From IMG/VR virus record IMGVR_UViG_3300035703_000049, positions 1 through 64,000 of that record: a DNA stretch of 64,000 nucleotides. The stretch is one strand, 5' to 3'. The stretch's first letter is position 1. Every line of letters begins with the position of its first letter. A model generated the notes under the pieces. That model worked only from the letters and a program-made list of their open reading frames with translations. It was not told the DNA's origin and did not search any database. This DNA comes from a virus. The translations under genes were made by a program, and so were the position numbers. Positions 60,496 to 63,658 of the stretch are shown here, one piece after another.

Positions 60496-61537
60496 CGTTG
60501 ATCTAATTAGAGAAATTTCATGGGTGCTTAGTGTAGCAAGTCAGCAAAATATGCTAGATGTATCTGGTGAATACATCTGGGCATATCCTAAGAACAAGTC
60601 GCTTGATGAATTAAAAGTGCGTAGTTGCACTATCTTTAGCAGTGGCAACGCTATAAAAGATGTTGAGGTTAACAGCTTTGTACAACAATCAAACATAGCT
60701 ACTCATTTAAAAGATCCATGGATCGTAAAGAAATTTGAGGAACGATTCTTCAATTGGGTAAAAGAGAATCCAAATCATAAGATAAAAAATTTAGATCTTT
60801 TTAAGTATACAGCTTTCGCAGCAGGTTCACAGGAAACATTTTCTAACTTCTACTTAAGTAATCGAAACAAACGATTTAGAGTTTTCAAAGGTGAATATTG
60901 GTGGCATATGGATGTATGGTCAAGCTTAGGGTTAAGCTGGGCATACATTGAAGATGATGAAATTAGACCAAACGATACTGTAATTTGCAGTTATCCATTT
61001 GCATTGTTTGGTCGTAAGCATCCTCAGTTTGATTGGTTATTAGATGAAGTAAAAGCAAAAAATTGCAAGCTGTTACTGGACTTTATCTATCTACCTAACA
61101 CATGCAATGAAGTTGAAGTAGACTTACAACATGAATGTATTGATGAAATTAGTTTTAGCTTTTCCAAAACGTTCCCAGTTCAATGCGCTAAGATAGCAGT
61201 TCGAATGTTAAAAAATAAACCCGTTGACATGATGCAAATAAGTAACGACGAAAACATATGCAATCGCTTAAGTGCAGGGCTAGGATTGGATATTATGAAC
61301 AACTTCCCTATGAACTATATGTATGAAAAGTACAAAGACAAGCAGCAATTTTGGTGCAGTAAACTAGGATTAACTCCAAGCCCAGTAGTCCATTTTGGAA
61401 CAGGAGATGATTATACTGCTTATGGAAAGCAACATTCTGCTCGTTGGTTCAGTGAATTCAATAATCAACAGGGAAGATACAATTTAGGTATGTTATATGA
61501 AAATGAAAATTTACTTTACAACCTAAACTATATATAG
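60488..61537 (+). CDS. PLP-dependent transferase, paralogue of 59061-60050
   Basis: GSQETFS, KRFRVFKGEY, SYPF, LLLDFIY, FSFSKTFPV. Confidence 0.72.
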   Translation: MLNVDLIREISWVLSVASQQNMLDVSGEYIWAYPKNKSLDELKVRSCTIFSSGNAIKDVEVNSFVQQSNIATHLKDPWIVKKFEERFFNWVKENPNHKIKNLDLFKYTAFAAGSQETFSNFYLSNRNKRFRVFKGEYWWHMDVWSSLGLSWAYIEDDEIRPNDTVICSYPFALFGRKHPQFDWLLDEVKAKNCKLLLDFIYLPNTCNEVEVDLQHECIDEISFSFSKTFPVQCAKIAVRMLKNKPVDMMQISNDENICNRLSAGLGLDIMNNFPMNYMYEKYKDKQQFWCSKLGLTPSPVVHFGTGDDYTAYGKQHSARWFSEFNNQQGRYNLGMLYENENLLYNLNYI

Positions 61538-61558
61538 TATTACATTAAGGATAAGAGG

Positions 61559-62080
61559 TTGCCAAGTAAGGGAAAAGCTAAAGGAAACGGATGGGAAAGG
61601 GAAGTCGCAGATTTTCTTTTCGAGTTGTACGGGGAAAGCTTTGTACGTGTACCCAACTCAGGTGCATTTATTGGTGGCAAAAACAGTCATCGTAAAGGAA
61701 ATTTGAGCGAACAACAAATCCGTGGCTTTAAAGGGGATATAATTCCAGGTCCCAGTTTTCCCCACTTGAACTTGGAAGCAAAGTTCTATAAGGACTTTGC
61801 TTTCCATCAAGTGCTTGCAGGAAGTTGCAAGCAACTTGATGATTGGATAAATCAAATTTTAACTACTTGTGACGAAACAGACATAAACATATTAGCGATG
61901 AAATTTAATCGCAAAGGCTCATTTATTGCATACGAAATAAAGCACATTCCAATCTTAAATTTAGGTCCAAACTACATACGATACTATAATCATAAACATA
62001 CTCATGGCACTTGGATAATTCAAGAATTCAATAATTTTTGGCAGCTTAACGGCACACAAATCAAAAATCTCTCAGCTTAA
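61559..62080 (+). CDS. PD-(D/E)XK nuclease, Holliday junction resolvase-like
   Basis: KAKGNGWEREVA, RVPNSGA, GDI..EAK; TTG start after AAGAGG. Confidence 0.78.
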   Translation: MPSKGKAKGNGWEREVADFLFELYGESFVRVPNSGAFIGGKNSHRKGNLSEQQIRGFKGDIIPGPSFPHLNLEAKFYKDFAFHQVLAGSCKQLDDWINQILTTCDETDINILAMKFNRKGSFIAYEIKHIPILNLGPNYIRYYNHKHTHGTWIIQEFNNFWQLNGTQIKNLSA

Positions 62081-62089
62081 CAGCACACT

Positions 62090-62440
62090 CATTTAGGCTA
62101 AACATAGGCTATATAGCCCCATATCTACGTTCAACTTTGAAGGTTGGCGACACCCCGATATTGTCGCAATTGGGCACAGTAAGGCTAACTTTAGGCTAAA
62201 TGATCGCGGCTCTGTGAAAAAGATACAACCGCAACTAATACACACGTTCGCTGGTTAGGGCGTGGTGAAGTTCCGTCGCAGAAAGCTGGAGTAGGGGGTA
62301 CCGGGCGACCGCCTCCGCTACATGTAAATGTAAATCTCCTTTAACAATCACAACAGTATGATGGAGTACTCAGATGAAGACTTCTATACTTTTCCTGGAA
62401 ACAGGAAAAGTATGACATCATATCTAGATGAATACTTTAA
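62090..62440 (+). ncRNA. Candidate large structured non-coding RNA, family not recognised
   Basis: No ORF; GC above surroundings; stems capped by GNRA loops (GCGA 62305-62308, GTAA 62324-62327, GAAA 62398-62401 on a perfect 12-bp stem); G-U pairs favour the + strand; boundaries approximate. Confidence 0.6.
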
Positions 62441-62508
62441 GTCGCTTAAGCGGTTTGCTCGTATGCAAGTAAAGTTAACACTGTGTTATTAAATTGAAGA
62501 GAAGAAAA

Positions 62509-62600
62509 TGTTCGAGTGTGAACGTAAGTGAACACGAAGAACAGATGTACGTAGTACATCTCAAAAGAATAGATAAGAATCAAAAAGAATATATTAGGAT
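62509..62600 (+). repeat. Two hairpins followed by 10-bp phased AAGAAT repeats
   Basis: Tandem-GA hairpin 62509-62543; AGATGTAC-GTA-GTACATCT 62543-62561; AAGAAT at 62565, 62575, 62585. Confidence 0.7.
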
Positions 62601-62609
62601 AGTTACGAC

Positions 62610-62804
62610 TTAAAAGAATGGAAGACCTGACTTTTTAGTTGTTTCCATATTATCTTTTATAATTTTTCCTATTATCTCTCTTTCTTGATAATCAAGTAAA
62701 AATGCATCGTCGTAAGATAATCCTCCCCTCATATACCAACATATCCTCAATAACTCTTCTTTGAGTGATAACGATTCTTTATCCAGATTATCGAGATATT
62801 TCAC
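62610..62804 (-). CDS. Tail/baseplate assembly chaperone C-terminal extension (gp51- or gpT-like), probably made by -1 frameshift
   Basis: WYMRGGLSY..ERE..GLPFF; frame stays open upstream to the slippery site at 62840-62849. Confidence 0.7.
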   Translation of the reverse strand: MKYLDNLDKESLSLKEELLRICWYMRGGLSYDDAFLLDYQEREIIGKIIKDNMETTKKSGLPFF

Positions 62805-62824
62805 TACCCCATCGTTATCTAATG

Positions 62825-63658
62825 TTAATAACCTGGAGCGAAAAAATTTGCAGGATCAAAATCAATAGAGGTATCATATGTTTTTGAACAACTTTCGCAT
62901 TGTGCAGTAAGTTTTGGTAACTTATAATTTGATACGTATTCATTTATCATATTTTTAACTTTATCAAACATTTCTTTATCTGCTTGCGTGATAAATTCTG
63001 TAATTTCAAAATGATCTGTAACTTTTTCGTAATCTGAAGTAATAATTGCTGCTATACTATGAGCTAACCGATTGTTTACGTTTTTAGCAATTTTCCTCAT
63101 CGTATTTCCTATTATTTCTGAACGTTGTTCGGTTGTAATATTAGGTTGACCTAACTGTTGAAGCATTCTGTTTTCTTCATAACTATCAATATTAAAAGAG
63201 TTAATTTCTTTAAAGTTAAGTGGTTTTAATTCAAAAGTTAAATCGTTAATAGTTGACATTTTTTCCCAATTTGGTTGTTGAATATTTTCCATTATCCAAC
63301 GACAATCAACTTCGTTATCATTAATAGAATTACAGTGAGGGCATTTACTTTCTAATTTTAAGTTAGGGCCATATGTTGCTATTCGTATTGCTAATAAAAT
63401 ATAATCTAAATCTGGTCTTGGTATATCCCAAGCATTCCTAATGTTTGGACAACAACTTTGAATCATATCAACTGTTGCAGATCCATTCATCAATGCATCG
63501 GCATTTTTTAAAAGTAAGTCATCTTTCCCAGTCATGCTTAACACTGGCATTTCTTTATTTTCTGGTAAATTTATCGATCCTGCTGGCCACCATTTACCAT
63601 TGCTAGGCAATTGAATGAATAATTTTGGTTGTCTAAAGTGCTTTGATAATGCTGACAT
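62825..63658 (-). CDS. Baseplate hub assembly/tail chaperone (T4 gp26-like)
   Basis: FRQPKLFIQLPS, MTGKDDLLLK, DLDYILLAIRIATYG, CPHC and CESC zinc pairs, NFF terminus. Confidence 0.8.
   Translation of the reverse strand: MSALSKHFRQPKLFIQLPSNGKWWPAGSINLPENKEMPVLSMTGKDDLLLKNADALMNGSATVDMIQSCCPNIRNAWDIPRPDLDYILLAIRIATYGPNLKLESKCPHCNSINDNEVDCRWIMENIQQPNWEKMSTINDLTFELKPLNFKEINSFNIDSYEENRMLQQLGQPNITTEQRSEIIGNTMRKIAKNVNNRLAHSIAAIITSDYEKVTDHFEITEFITQADKEMFDKVKNMINEYVSNYKLPKLTAQCESCSKTYDTSIDFDPANFFAPGY
62840..62849 (-). other. Predicted -1 programmed ribosomal frameshift site
   Basis: A AAT TTT TTC in the reading frame of 62825-63658: two overlapping X XXY YYZ heptamers. Confidence 0.7.

What the first reader, a model, noticed from the sequence alone, without database searches (positions are those of the whole stretch)
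62090..62440. Unrecognised ornate non-coding RNA candidate downstream of the resolvase-like nuclease
Seen: the only large intergenic stretch (about 530 bp) in an otherwise wall-to-wall coding window. It has stacked stems: GGCTATATAGCC (62107-62118), CAACTT/AGGTTG (62132-62146), GCGACA/TGTCGC (62147-62167), GCGG/CCGC (62206-62232), CACGTTC/GGGCGTG with G-U pairs, a three-way junction closed by GGAG/CTCC (62288-62339) bearing GCGA and GTAA tetraloops, and a 12-bp stem with a GAAA loop (62386-62413). Three GNRA loops plus G-U pairs point to a folded + strand RNA with tertiary contacts. I see no hallmark of tRNA, tmRNA, RNase P or group I/II introns. Inference: a new or diverged large phage ncRNA (GOLLD/ROOL-like in character), a replication primer RNA, or an RNA partner of the adjacent nuclease.
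Basis: partly seen in the sequence, partly recalled or inferred. Interest (0 to 1): 0.85.

Follow-up and report, generated by a model that had tools for sequence, protein, structure and literature searches.

The report
Twin-word structured RNA of lake phages
The gene-free gap holds a real folded non-coding RNA of about 470 bases, shared by well over a hundred uncultured giant T4-like phages; it carries one short purine-rich word twice, always identical within a phage, and its job is unknown.

Summary
The + strand folds better than shuffles (z -3.65; - strand -1.46). A covariance model built from 63 other phages, without this window, hits it once (62198-62351 +, 109.8 bits, E 2e-22). The RNA is longer than reported, about 62092-62561: a variable 5' domain, a conserved core with a three-way junction and a pseudoknot, a module with two identical 7-base words (AGATGAA at 62372 and 62426), and two tail hairpins.

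On 70 sequences 85.6% of proposed pairs form, against about 43% in slid controls. The two words match exactly in 110 of 121 loci and change at least 30 times on the tree. Divergent members carry unrelated words, still twinned. I found no complementary word in the RNA, its flanks or seven phage genomes.

Rfam 15 has no match here. Polynucleobacter-1 (RF01718) matches only the 5' domain of one relative.

The neighbouring nuclease gene occupies a swappable slot (GIY-YIG or PD-(D/E)XK type). The closest relative has a true homing endonuclease there, so a specific RNA partnership is unlikely.

Function is unknown. The scan has found this family many times on other DNA.

The parts
61510..61538 (+). 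Sigma-70-like promoter match (TTTACT-17-TATAGT) just upstream of the nuclease gene; possible start of a nuclease + RNA transcript
   Evidence: This is a consensus match only: 5 such sites were found against 5.2 expected.
61559..62080 (+). PDDEXK_15 nuclease gene (173 aa), occupying the nuclease slot directly 5' of the RNA
   Evidence: Pfam PF24608, E 1.3e-25. It is the only copy in the 88-kb record, and no SegE-type GIY-YIG gene is present.
62092..62182 (+). Lineage-specific 5' domain. It holds hairpins 62107-62118, 62132-62146 and 62147-62167, plus the helix GCCC 62116-62119 / GGGC 62172-62175. AGGCTA occurs at 62095, 62107, 62182 and 62194.
   Evidence: The hairpin 62147-62167 keeps pairing through C-G (window), A-U (L001) and U-A (L085). 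The GCCC/GGGC helix covaries in relatives as CCCA/TGGG versus TCCA/TGGA. RF01718 does not match this domain.
62183..62197 (+). Hairpin Ha with the conserved loop UAACUU(U/A)AG
   Evidence: helix 1: all 4 pairs show changes on both sides, and 78.6% of cells are paired. It is weak in the window, with 3 pairs.
62198..62351 (+). Conserved core. Pc: 62206-62209/62229-62232 and 62213-62215/62225-62227. Pd: 62243-62249/62258-62264. Three-way junction: PJ 62288-62291/62336-62339, PG 62294-62298/62312-62316 plus 62302-62304/62309-62311, PV 62319-62323/62328-62332.
   Evidence: Model R1, built without this window, gives 109.8 bits and E 1.9e-22, and it is the only hit in 64 kb.
62251..62253 (+). 5' strand of pseudoknot PK1 (CUG in the Pd loop), pairing with CAG at 62354-62356
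   Evidence: helix 5: 93.4% of cells paired, and all 4 pairs show changes on both sides (for example C-G 39 / U-A 18; U-A 41 / A-U 18).
62354..62356 (+). 3' strand of pseudoknot PK1
62363..62384 (+). Hairpin that displays word 1 in its loop (GGAG 62363-62366 / CUUC 62381-62384)
   Evidence: Across the family, the segments flanking word 1 pair better with their own partner than with partners from other phages (-6.23 against -4.86 kcal/mol, p 3e-8).
62372..62378 (+). Twin word, copy 1 (AGAUGAA), preceded by ACUC
62386..62413 (+). Hairpin PH (12 bp, GAAA loop) between the two words
   Evidence: helix 13: 88.5% of cells paired, and 6 pairs show changes on both sides.
62426..62432 (+). Twin word, copy 2 (AGAUGAA), preceded by AUCU. 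AUCUAGAU is a palindrome.
62443..62452 (+). Small hairpin CGC-UUAA-GCG, followed by a window-specific insert up to about 62505
   Evidence: the hairpin is shared with L001 and L003, and the insert columns are 67-88% gaps in the family.
62510..62542 (+). Tail hairpin T1 with the conserved GA / GAA internal loop and a GUAA tetraloop
   Evidence: the 6-bp outer stem carries 4 pair types per position across 89 sequences, and the inner pairs form in 100%.
62543..62561 (+). Tail hairpin T2 (AGAUGUAC-GUA-GUACAUCU); probable 3' end or terminator of the RNA
   Evidence: 93-100% paired, with up to 5 pair types per position. The terminator scan flags it on the - strand.
62610..62804 (-). gp51-like 64-aa ORF; with gp26 (62825-63658) it converges on the RNA
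   Evidence: tblastn finds it 3' of the RNA on the opposite strand in 94 of 121 loci, and gp26 in 87 of 121. Pfam T4_baseplate and PHROG baseplate hub match gp26.

Best explanation
Shown: the gap encodes a + strand, single-copy, structured non-coding RNA of about 470 nt (about 62092-62561). It belongs to a large RNA family, uncatalogued apart from the 5' domain of some members (RF01718), of uncultured T4-like jumbo phages. It has a variable 5' domain, a near-invariant core (three-way junction plus pseudoknot), a module with two identical purine-rich 6-8-nt words 49-59 nt apart, and two tail hairpins.

Inferred: the RNA has no room for its own promoter, so it is made as the tail of the upstream nuclease transcript and ends at hairpin T2. 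It then acts as a free-standing RNA, probably as a ribonucleoprotein (RNP) scaffold. Its working surface is the pair of identical, exposed, fast-changing words, which serve as two equivalent docking sites for a two-fold or two-copy partner that is still unidentified. The nuclease gene is a neighbour rather than a partner: the 5' flank of this conserved RNA gene is a slot that free-standing nuclease cassettes occupy and exchange, much as segB sits among the T4 tRNA genes.

Odds: real RNA family member 0.95; co-transcription with the nuclease gene 0.6; twin words as equivalent recognition sites for a trans partner 0.35.
For: - Reality and strand: fold z -3.65 (+) against -1.46 (-). Many G-U pairs exist only on the + strand. 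The independent model hits at 109.8 bits, E 1.9e-22.
- Structure: 85.6% of cells paired against 40-45% when partners are slid; 366 cells changed on both sides against 70-107; 0 of 500 shuffles reach the observed values. T1 and T2 covary.
- Spread: at least 121 IMG/VR contigs by one 26-nt pattern. None among 50,697 GenBank phage records. Only 2 contigs of one MAG among 185,579 species genomes. One copy in each of 7 genomes.
- Twin words: exact twins in 110 of 121 loci. Mutual information is 1.0 between the paired variable positions, with no mixed A/G state in 70 rows, and the next-best column reaches 0.23-0.5. There are at least 30 word changes on the tree, and all independent pairs on supported branches (about 12) go the same way. 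Unrelated words in divergent members are still twinned: ACAGAAU, GGAAAAAG, GACGAA, AGAUCAAG.
- Exposure: word 1 sits in a hairpin loop.
- Nuclease slot: 77 of 100 loci have a GIY-YIG gene and 10 of 100 a PDDEXK_15 gene directly upstream. Each genome has exactly one nuclease of one type or the other, never both. The type switches at least 5 times on the RNA tree. The window's nearest RNA relative, L085, has a SegE GIY-YIG + NUMOD3 homing-type endonuclease there. Genes are inserted between nuclease and RNA in L002.
- Co-transcription: only 11 bases separate the nuclease stop codon from the first conserved RNA bases.
Against: - There is no transcript evidence of any kind.
- No partner was found. 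No complementary word, even allowing G-U pairs, lies in the RNA or within 3 kb. No homologous site in five phage genomes changes with the word (0 of 28). No twin anti-word sites exist. No anti-word sits in a conserved context in seven genomes (best 27 of 50 flank identities against 27-44 in controls).
- A host partner would have to differ as radically as the words do, which is hard to picture for conserved host RNAs.
- Pairing with a partner does not by itself force two sites to stay identical unless one partner must fit both.
- One nuclease per genome, always adjacent and of only two alternative types, is not the sporadic multi-copy pattern of typical homing endonucleases. It leaves room for a functional link.
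Confidence: 0.38

Rival explanations
1. The RNA works with the adjacent minimal nuclease as one module, as scaffold, targeting subunit or regulator. Most of these nucleases are bare catalytic domains (142-173 aa) with no DNA-binding domain. The RNA, with its two identical words, would supply recognition for two nuclease protomers.
For: 87 of 100 loci have a small nuclease gene directly upstream on the same strand. There is exactly one such nuclease per genome, always next to the single RNA copy, and the two families exclude each other. Most lack any domain beyond the catalytic one.
Against: Two unrelated folds, plus a full-length Seg endonuclease with its own NUMOD3 DNA-binding motif, fill the same slot and switch between close RNA relatives, so one RNA would have to fit all of them. 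The word changes at least 30 times while the proteins stay conserved. The phage's own genome neither avoids nor accumulates the word or its complement: 164 own-word occurrences against about 153 for control words, and 17-18 against about 10 expected in G000. Eleven of 100 loci have other genes in the slot, and in L002 a 564-aa ORF lies between the nuclease gene and the RNA.
Confidence: 0.15
2. It is a cis-acting 3' UTR or junction element. It would stabilise or time the nuclease mRNA and insulate the convergent early and late transcription units, with T2 as a two-way terminator.
For: It lies directly behind the nuclease stop codon with no room for a promoter. It sits at a convergent junction with gp51/gp26 in 94 of 121 loci. 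T2 is a palindromic hairpin flagged as terminator-like.
Against: A 470-nt, pseudoknotted RNA with a near-invariant core is far more than stabilisation or termination needs. It keeps its sequence when other genes replace the nuclease upstream and when up to 3.7 kb is inserted before gp51. Twin-word identity has no role in this model.
Confidence: 0.12
3. The two identical words are donor and acceptor sites for a copying enzyme or other machine that jumps between them. This is copy-choice, as with coronavirus transcription-regulating sequences or the repeat-flanked template of the DRT2 defence RNA. The result would be a product that skips or reiterates the roughly 55-nt unit.
For: Identity in itself, whatever the word, is what template switching needs and what pairing models do not explain. 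The word length (6-8 nt) and the hairpins between the words fit such systems (general knowledge). No complement exists anywhere searched.
Against: No reverse transcriptase is found in five phage records, including a complete 347-kb genome. The unit length is not fixed (49-59 nt). No tandem copies of the unit occur in the genomes, which have one RNA locus each. No product has been observed.
Confidence: 0.07
4. It is a ribozyme, self-cleaving or processing, and the two identical words mark two equivalent cleavage or ligation sites.
For: Its size, invariant core and pseudoknot are typical of catalytic RNAs. The two identical sites could be processed alike.
Against: No Rfam ribozyme family matches, even at E up to 10. 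The hammerhead-looking UGAUGAG...CGAAA in T1 of relatives is a covarying stem with a GA/GAA loop, not a hammerhead core. No internal guide complementary to the words exists.
Confidence: 0.07
5. It is a replication origin or primer RNA, as the first reader proposed and as a sister note on 'origin-like hairpins' suggests.
For: Its position at a strand switch, and the direct repeats (AGGCTA four times, the twin words) and hairpins.
Against: Pairing is kept through compensatory changes, including G-U pairs that exist only in RNA of the + strand. The 'ssDNA-type' hairpins are T1 and T2 of the RNA. R-loop primers need no conserved tertiary fold (general knowledge).
Confidence: 0.04

Closest known systems
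Polynucleobacter-1 RNA motif (Rfam RF01718; Weinberg et al. 2010, PMC2864571)
   Same: It is an orphan structured RNA from freshwater samples. In the relative L032 it matches (39.2 bits, cut-off 37) the stretch directly 5' of the same conserved core, so it is the 5' domain of some members of this family.
   Different: It is a 141-nt motif listed only in a table as a possible cis-regulator. It does not match this window (no hit at E up to 10). Of the 23 family loci scanned, the 15 scanned at the gathering threshold gave only the L032 match, and the 8 scanned at E up to 5 gave none. The core, the twin words and the tail are not part of it.
GOLLD and ROOL large ornate phage-associated RNAs (Rfam)
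   Same: They are large, multi-domain RNAs of unknown function encoded by phages and supported by covariation.
   Different: No sequence or structure match was found. The RNA here is smaller (about 470 nt) and not next to tRNA genes (no tRNA in 64 kb). It has the twin-word feature, which to my knowledge has not been described for those RNAs.
Free-standing Seg homing endonucleases beside conserved RNA genes in T4 (segB in the tRNA cluster; from general knowledge)
   Same: A GIY-YIG nuclease gene sits directly beside a highly conserved RNA gene. In L085 the gene has the full Seg layout, GIY-YIG plus NUMOD3. Different nuclease cassettes replace one another at the same spot.
   Different: Here there is one nuclease per genome, present in 87% of loci, and most are bare catalytic domains. 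No cleavage site is known.
Identical short core sequences used for jumping: coronavirus TRS-L/TRS-B, DRT2 ncRNA template ends, and take-off and landing codons of T4 gene 60 (from general knowledge)
   Same: Two copies of one short word are kept identical while the word itself drifts. The spacing of about 50 nt with a hairpin recalls gene 60.
   Different: There is no reverse transcriptase. No conserved ORF leads into word 1 and no conserved stop follows it in divergent members. No jumped product is known.

Membership tests
Twin-word phage RNA family (uncatalogued; defined here from 63-121 viral contigs) | Conserved core scored by a covariance model built without the candidate | tested here: met
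   R1 gives 109.8 bits and E 1.9e-22 at 62198-62351 +, spanning the full model, and it is the only hit in the window.
Twin-word phage RNA family (uncatalogued; defined here from 63-121 viral contigs) | Three-way junction (PJ, PG, PV) and pseudoknot between the Pd loop and the strand after the junction | tested here: met
   The window forms all of these helices, and the family counts support them. The window's PK1 is CUG 62251-62253 with CAG 62354-62356, using the compensatory G-C at the position that is A-U in most members.
Twin-word phage RNA family (uncatalogued; defined here from 63-121 viral contigs) | Two identical 6-8-nt purine-rich words 49-59 nt apart, preceded by ACUC and AUCU | tested here: met
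   AGAUGAA at 62372 and 62426, 54 nt apart, with flanks ACUC and AUCU.
Twin-word phage RNA family (uncatalogued; defined here from 63-121 viral contigs) | Tail hairpins T1 (GA/GAA loop) and T2 (AGA...UCU) | tested here: met
   62510-62542 and 62543-62561.
Twin-word phage RNA family (uncatalogued; defined here from 63-121 viral contigs) | Synteny: behind a small nuclease gene and convergent with gp51/gp26 | tested here: met
Polynucleobacter-1 (RF01718) | Score at or above Rfam's gathering cut-off (37 bits) | tested here: not met
   No hit in the window at gathering or at E up to 10. Only L032 reaches 39.2 bits.
GOLLD / ROOL / other large Rfam RNAs, RNase P, group I and II introns, 6S, known ribozymes | Rfam covariance-model match | tested here: not met
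   No family reaches gathering in 64 kb. Only two chance-level hits (E 0.65 and 6.4) appear in 1 kb.
tRNA / tmRNA | ARAGORN detection | tested here: not met
   No genes found in the window.
Guide RNAs of RNA-guided nucleases (OMEGA/TnpB/IscB-like) | A RuvC/HNH-type effector encoded beside the RNA, a freely variable guide segment, and targets matching the guide | tested here: not met
   The neighbours are GIY-YIG or PD-(D/E)XK nucleases. In most members only 3 positions of the word vary, each between two bases. No enrichment, avoidance or co-varying target was found.
Hammerhead ribozyme (considered for T1 of relatives) | Unpaired CUGANGA and GAAA core around three helices | tested here: not met
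   The UGAU part is a covarying stem, only GA / GAA is conserved, and no Rfam hit was found.

The most novel reading that the evidence does not exclude
The two words stay identical because identity itself is the function. One possibility is that a polymerase or other machine jumps between them. Another is that the two purine-rich words, which are direct repeats and so naturally parallel, zip into a parallel-stranded homo-paired duplex (A.A, G.G, U.U). That is the only structural model that directly predicts same-with-same covariation for any word. Either reading would be unprecedented for a phage-encoded RNA.
Probability: 0.12. Interest if true: 0.92.

Novelty: new variant of a known kind. Interest (0 to 1): 0.72.

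Why it matters
Large, intricately folded RNAs of unknown function are rare, and past examples have often turned out to be new ribozymes or RNP machines. This one is specific to uncultured giant T4-like phages. In my searches it was absent from GenBank phage records and, by one exact 26-nt core pattern, from all but one of 185,579 species' genomes. Rfam holds only the 5' domain of some members.

Its twin words show a kind of covariation, same-with-same rather than complementary, that standard RNA covariation methods do not look for and that no pairing model explains. Finding out what reads two identical words would probably reveal a new mode of RNA recognition or processing in phage infection. 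It would also show why free-standing nuclease genes gather beside this gene.

Tried and rejected
- RNA evidence: no RNA holder is listed for the stretch. The single run offered (X1, labelled RNA-Seq but probably DNA, kept as contigs, 5% of words) holds relatives' contigs over the element and says nothing on expression.
- A long-range helix joining the stretch before word 1 to the stretch before word 2 forms in the window (AUGAUG 62358-62363 with CAUCAU 62416-62421) but has no family support: 43% paired, and own -4.18 against cross -4.10 kcal/mol, p 0.72.
- Anti-word hunts were all negative: exact complement within 3 kb; G-U-tolerant complement within the RNA of 7 diverse members; own genome counts of 17-18 against about 10 expected, with no pattern; homologous sites co-varying with the word in five genomes, 0 of 28, with low power because few contexts align; paired anti-words within 150 nt; anti-words in a conserved context across seven genomes.
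- Pairing of word 1 with the flank of word 2 (RGAU with AUCU) exists but predicts that A/G mixed states would be fine. None occurs.
- Ribosome hopping as in T4 gene 60: the small in-frame ORF (AUG ACU ... CUC AGA UGA) is seen only in the main lineage, not in the window or the second subfamily. The landing word is itself followed by the same stop, and divergent words have no stop.
- Reverse transcriptase: none found in 5 records.
- T4 endonuclease VII: none found. The single nuclease may therefore be the phage's branch-resolving enzyme, but this is inference only.
- RF01718 as the 5' third of this copy: not met.
- Default RNAalifold on the full alignment recovered only 21 pairs. A naive all-against-all pair scan was swamped by subfamily structure.

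Full report
**The observation**

The window is the first 64 kb of an 88-kb fragment of an uncultured T4-like myovirus, estimated 25% complete. The interval 62081-62609 lies between two genes. On the + strand is a PDDEXK_15 nuclease gene (61559-62080; Pfam PF24608, E 1.3e-25; the PHROG hit is 'RusA-like resolvase'). On the - strand is a 64-aa gp51-like ORF followed by the gp26 baseplate-hub gene.

The interval is the largest ORF-free stretch of the window. GC content rises from about 0.32 to 0.45-0.54. The + strand folds at z -3.65 against shuffles and the - strand at only -1.46. Rfam 15 gives nothing at gathering over 64 kb and only two chance-level hits at E up to 10 over 1 kb. ARAGORN finds no tRNA or tmRNA.

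**Relatives**

The nuclease protein led to nine viral contigs, two of which (L001, L003) carry a homologous, ORF-free element right behind the gene.

The same RNA is absent from 50,697 GenBank phage records, whether queried with the window's copy or a main-lineage copy. The pattern occurs in only two contigs of one 'Haliscomenobacter' MAG among 185,579 species genomes; these are probably mis-binned phage DNA. Seven phage records that I read in full or in large part carry exactly one copy each.

A covariance model of the 155-position core was built from 63 other phages, with the window and its two closest relatives left out. It hits the window once, at 62198-62351 +, with 109.8 bits and E 1.9e-22. 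Membership and strand are therefore settled.

**Anatomy**

Conservation runs from about 62092 to 62440, drops over a window-specific insert, and resumes at 62500-62561. I tested a hand-built structure on a 70-sequence alignment.

| Measure | Proposed structure | Slid controls |
|---|---|---|
| Cells paired | 85.6% | 40-45% |
| Cells changed on both sides | 366 | 70-107 |
| Covariation score | 0.26 | about 0.065 |

None of 500 shuffles reaches the observed values.

The supported helices are:
- Pc (62206-62209/62229-62232 and 62213-62215/62225-62227).
- Pd (62243-62249/62258-62264).
- A pseudoknot between the Pd loop and the strand after the junction (window CUG 62251-62253 with CAG 62354-62356).
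- The 12-bp hairpin 62386-62413.

The tail holds two further hairpins with abundant compensatory change in 89 sequences:
- T1 (62510-62542) has a conserved GA/GAA internal loop.
- T2 (62543-62561) is probably the 3' end.

These two are the 'ssDNA-type, origin-like hairpins' of a sister note on this window. They are better read as part of the RNA.

The 5' domain (62092-62182) is specific to this lineage but shares its plan with the main lineage: a hairpin, then the helix GCCC 62116-62119 / GGGC 62172-62175, with further hairpins between its two strands. The three GNRA loops are not conserved outside the window's lineage.

**The twin words**

AGAUGAA occurs at 62372-62378, preceded by ACUC, and again at 62426-62432, preceded by AUCU.

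- In 110 of 121 loci the two 7-nt words are identical, with nine versions.
- The three variable positions (A/G, G/A, U/A) have mutual information of 0.7-1.06 with their twins. No mixed A/G state occurs in 70 rows, and no other column exceeds 0.5.
- On a tree built without the words, the word changes at least 30 times. The first position changes 18 times in both copies, which is at the 90th percentile of column rates. All independent pairs on well-supported branches, about 12 in total, change together.
- Divergent members carry unrelated words that are still twinned: ACAGAAU, GGAAAAAG, GACGAA, AGAUCAAG.
- All words are purine-rich.
- Word 1 sits in the loop of a hairpin whose arms covary (own -6.2 against cross -4.9 kcal/mol, p 3e-8).

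Identity itself is therefore under selection, whatever the word.

I looked for a complementary partner in four places and found none:
- Inside the RNA, allowing G-U pairs.
- Within 3 kb on either side.
- At homologous sites of five genomes with different words (0 of 28).
- As paired sites or in a conserved context across seven genomes, one 100% and two 85-90% complete.

These negatives have limited power, but they weaken simple pairing with a phage-encoded partner. Word differences this radical make a conserved host RNA an unlikely partner.

**The nuclease neighbour**

| Gene directly upstream, same strand | Loci (of 100 with enough flank) |
|---|---|
| SegE-type GIY-YIG nuclease (PF19835, E 6e-32) | 77 |
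| PDDEXK_15 nuclease | 10 |
| Other genes | 11 |
| None | 2 |

Each of five genomes has exactly one nuclease of one type or the other, never both, and always next to the RNA. None has T4 endonuclease VII. The nuclease type switches at least five times on the RNA tree. The window's nearest RNA relative, L085 (88% identical), has a 355-aa GIY-YIG + NUMOD3 protein in the slot, which is the layout of a free-standing Seg homing endonuclease. In L002 a 564-aa ORF lies between the nuclease gene and the RNA.

One RNA serving unrelated nuclease folds is unlikely. The simpler reading is that the flank of this very conserved RNA gene is a slot for nuclease cassettes, as with segB among the T4 tRNA genes. 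A looser functional link cannot be excluded, because the pattern of one nuclease per genome, present in 87% of loci, is not the sporadic pattern of typical homing genes.

**What it is closest to**

RF01718 (Polynucleobacter-1) is an orphan 141-nt freshwater motif listed only in a table of Weinberg et al. 2010. In L032 it matches the stretch directly 5' of the same core (39.2 bits against a cut-off of 37). It is therefore the 5' domain of some members. It does not match this window at E up to 10. Fifteen family loci scanned at the gathering threshold gave only the L032 match, and eight others scanned at E up to 5 gave none. The core, the words and the tail are uncatalogued.

**Verdict**

- 'New large phage ncRNA' is supported.
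- 'Primer RNA' is not supported.
- 'Partner of the nuclease' is unlikely as stated.

The function is unknown. My best guess, at 0.35-0.4, is a free-standing RNA made on the nuclease transcript that offers two equivalent, fast-evolving docking words to an unidentified two-fold partner. The less conventional readings together get about 0.1-0.15: jumping between the words, or a parallel word-word duplex.

No transcript evidence could be obtained. This scan has already reported the same family from many other genomes.
- The RF01718-negative lineage represented by this window.
- The covarying tail hairpins T1 and T2.
- The swappable nuclease slot.
- Twins made of unrelated words in divergent members.
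- The negative whole-genome partner hunts.

Noticed in passing
window 62386-62392, 62407-62413, 62432-62438: AUACUUU occurs twice, and both copies are complementary to AAAGUAU (62407-62413). The 3' strand of the 12-bp hairpin could therefore pair instead with the stretch just after word 2, enclosing word 2 in an 18-nt loop. This alternative is not seen in the main lineage.
   Followed up: partly
window 62095, 62107, 62182, 62194: AGGCTA occurs four times in and before the 5' domain, with its complement UAGCC occurring once at 62114-62118. Main-lineage members have AGGCAA in the matching places. Unlike the twin words, these copies are not kept strictly identical in relatives (L001, L011).
   Followed up: partly
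L085:4400-4545 (- strand): The window's closest relative has a 21-nt hairpin (GAAGAGCGCAAAGCGUUCUUC) inserted inside the conserved loop CUAAC^UUUAGG of hairpin Ha, so that loop tolerates an insertion.
   Followed up: no
L130:666-691 and L131:4188-4213: These are the only hits of the core pattern among 185,579 species genomes. They are two contigs (148 and 183 kb) of one 'Haliscomenobacter sp.' MAG. They are probably jumbo-phage contigs binned with a Bacteroidota host, which would be a possible host lead.
   Followed up: no
G006 (complete, 346,856 bp, direct terminal repeats), G007, G008, G009, G000: None of these T4-like genomes has a T4 endonuclease VII (gp49) homologue. Each has one GIY-YIG or one PDDEXK_15 nuclease. 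That nuclease may be the branch-resolving enzyme, swapped between non-orthologous types.
   Followed up: partly
L003, L017, L035 and others, tail hairpin T1: T1 of many relatives reads UGAUGAGC-GAUA-GCGAAA, which looks like a hammerhead core. Covariation shows a plain stem with a conserved GA/GAA internal loop instead. This may be a protein-binding or tertiary-contact motif.
   Followed up: partly
window 62610-62851: The gp51-like ORF starts with GTG immediately after gp26. Sister notes propose a -1 frameshift that would join the two. I did not examine this.
   Followed up: no
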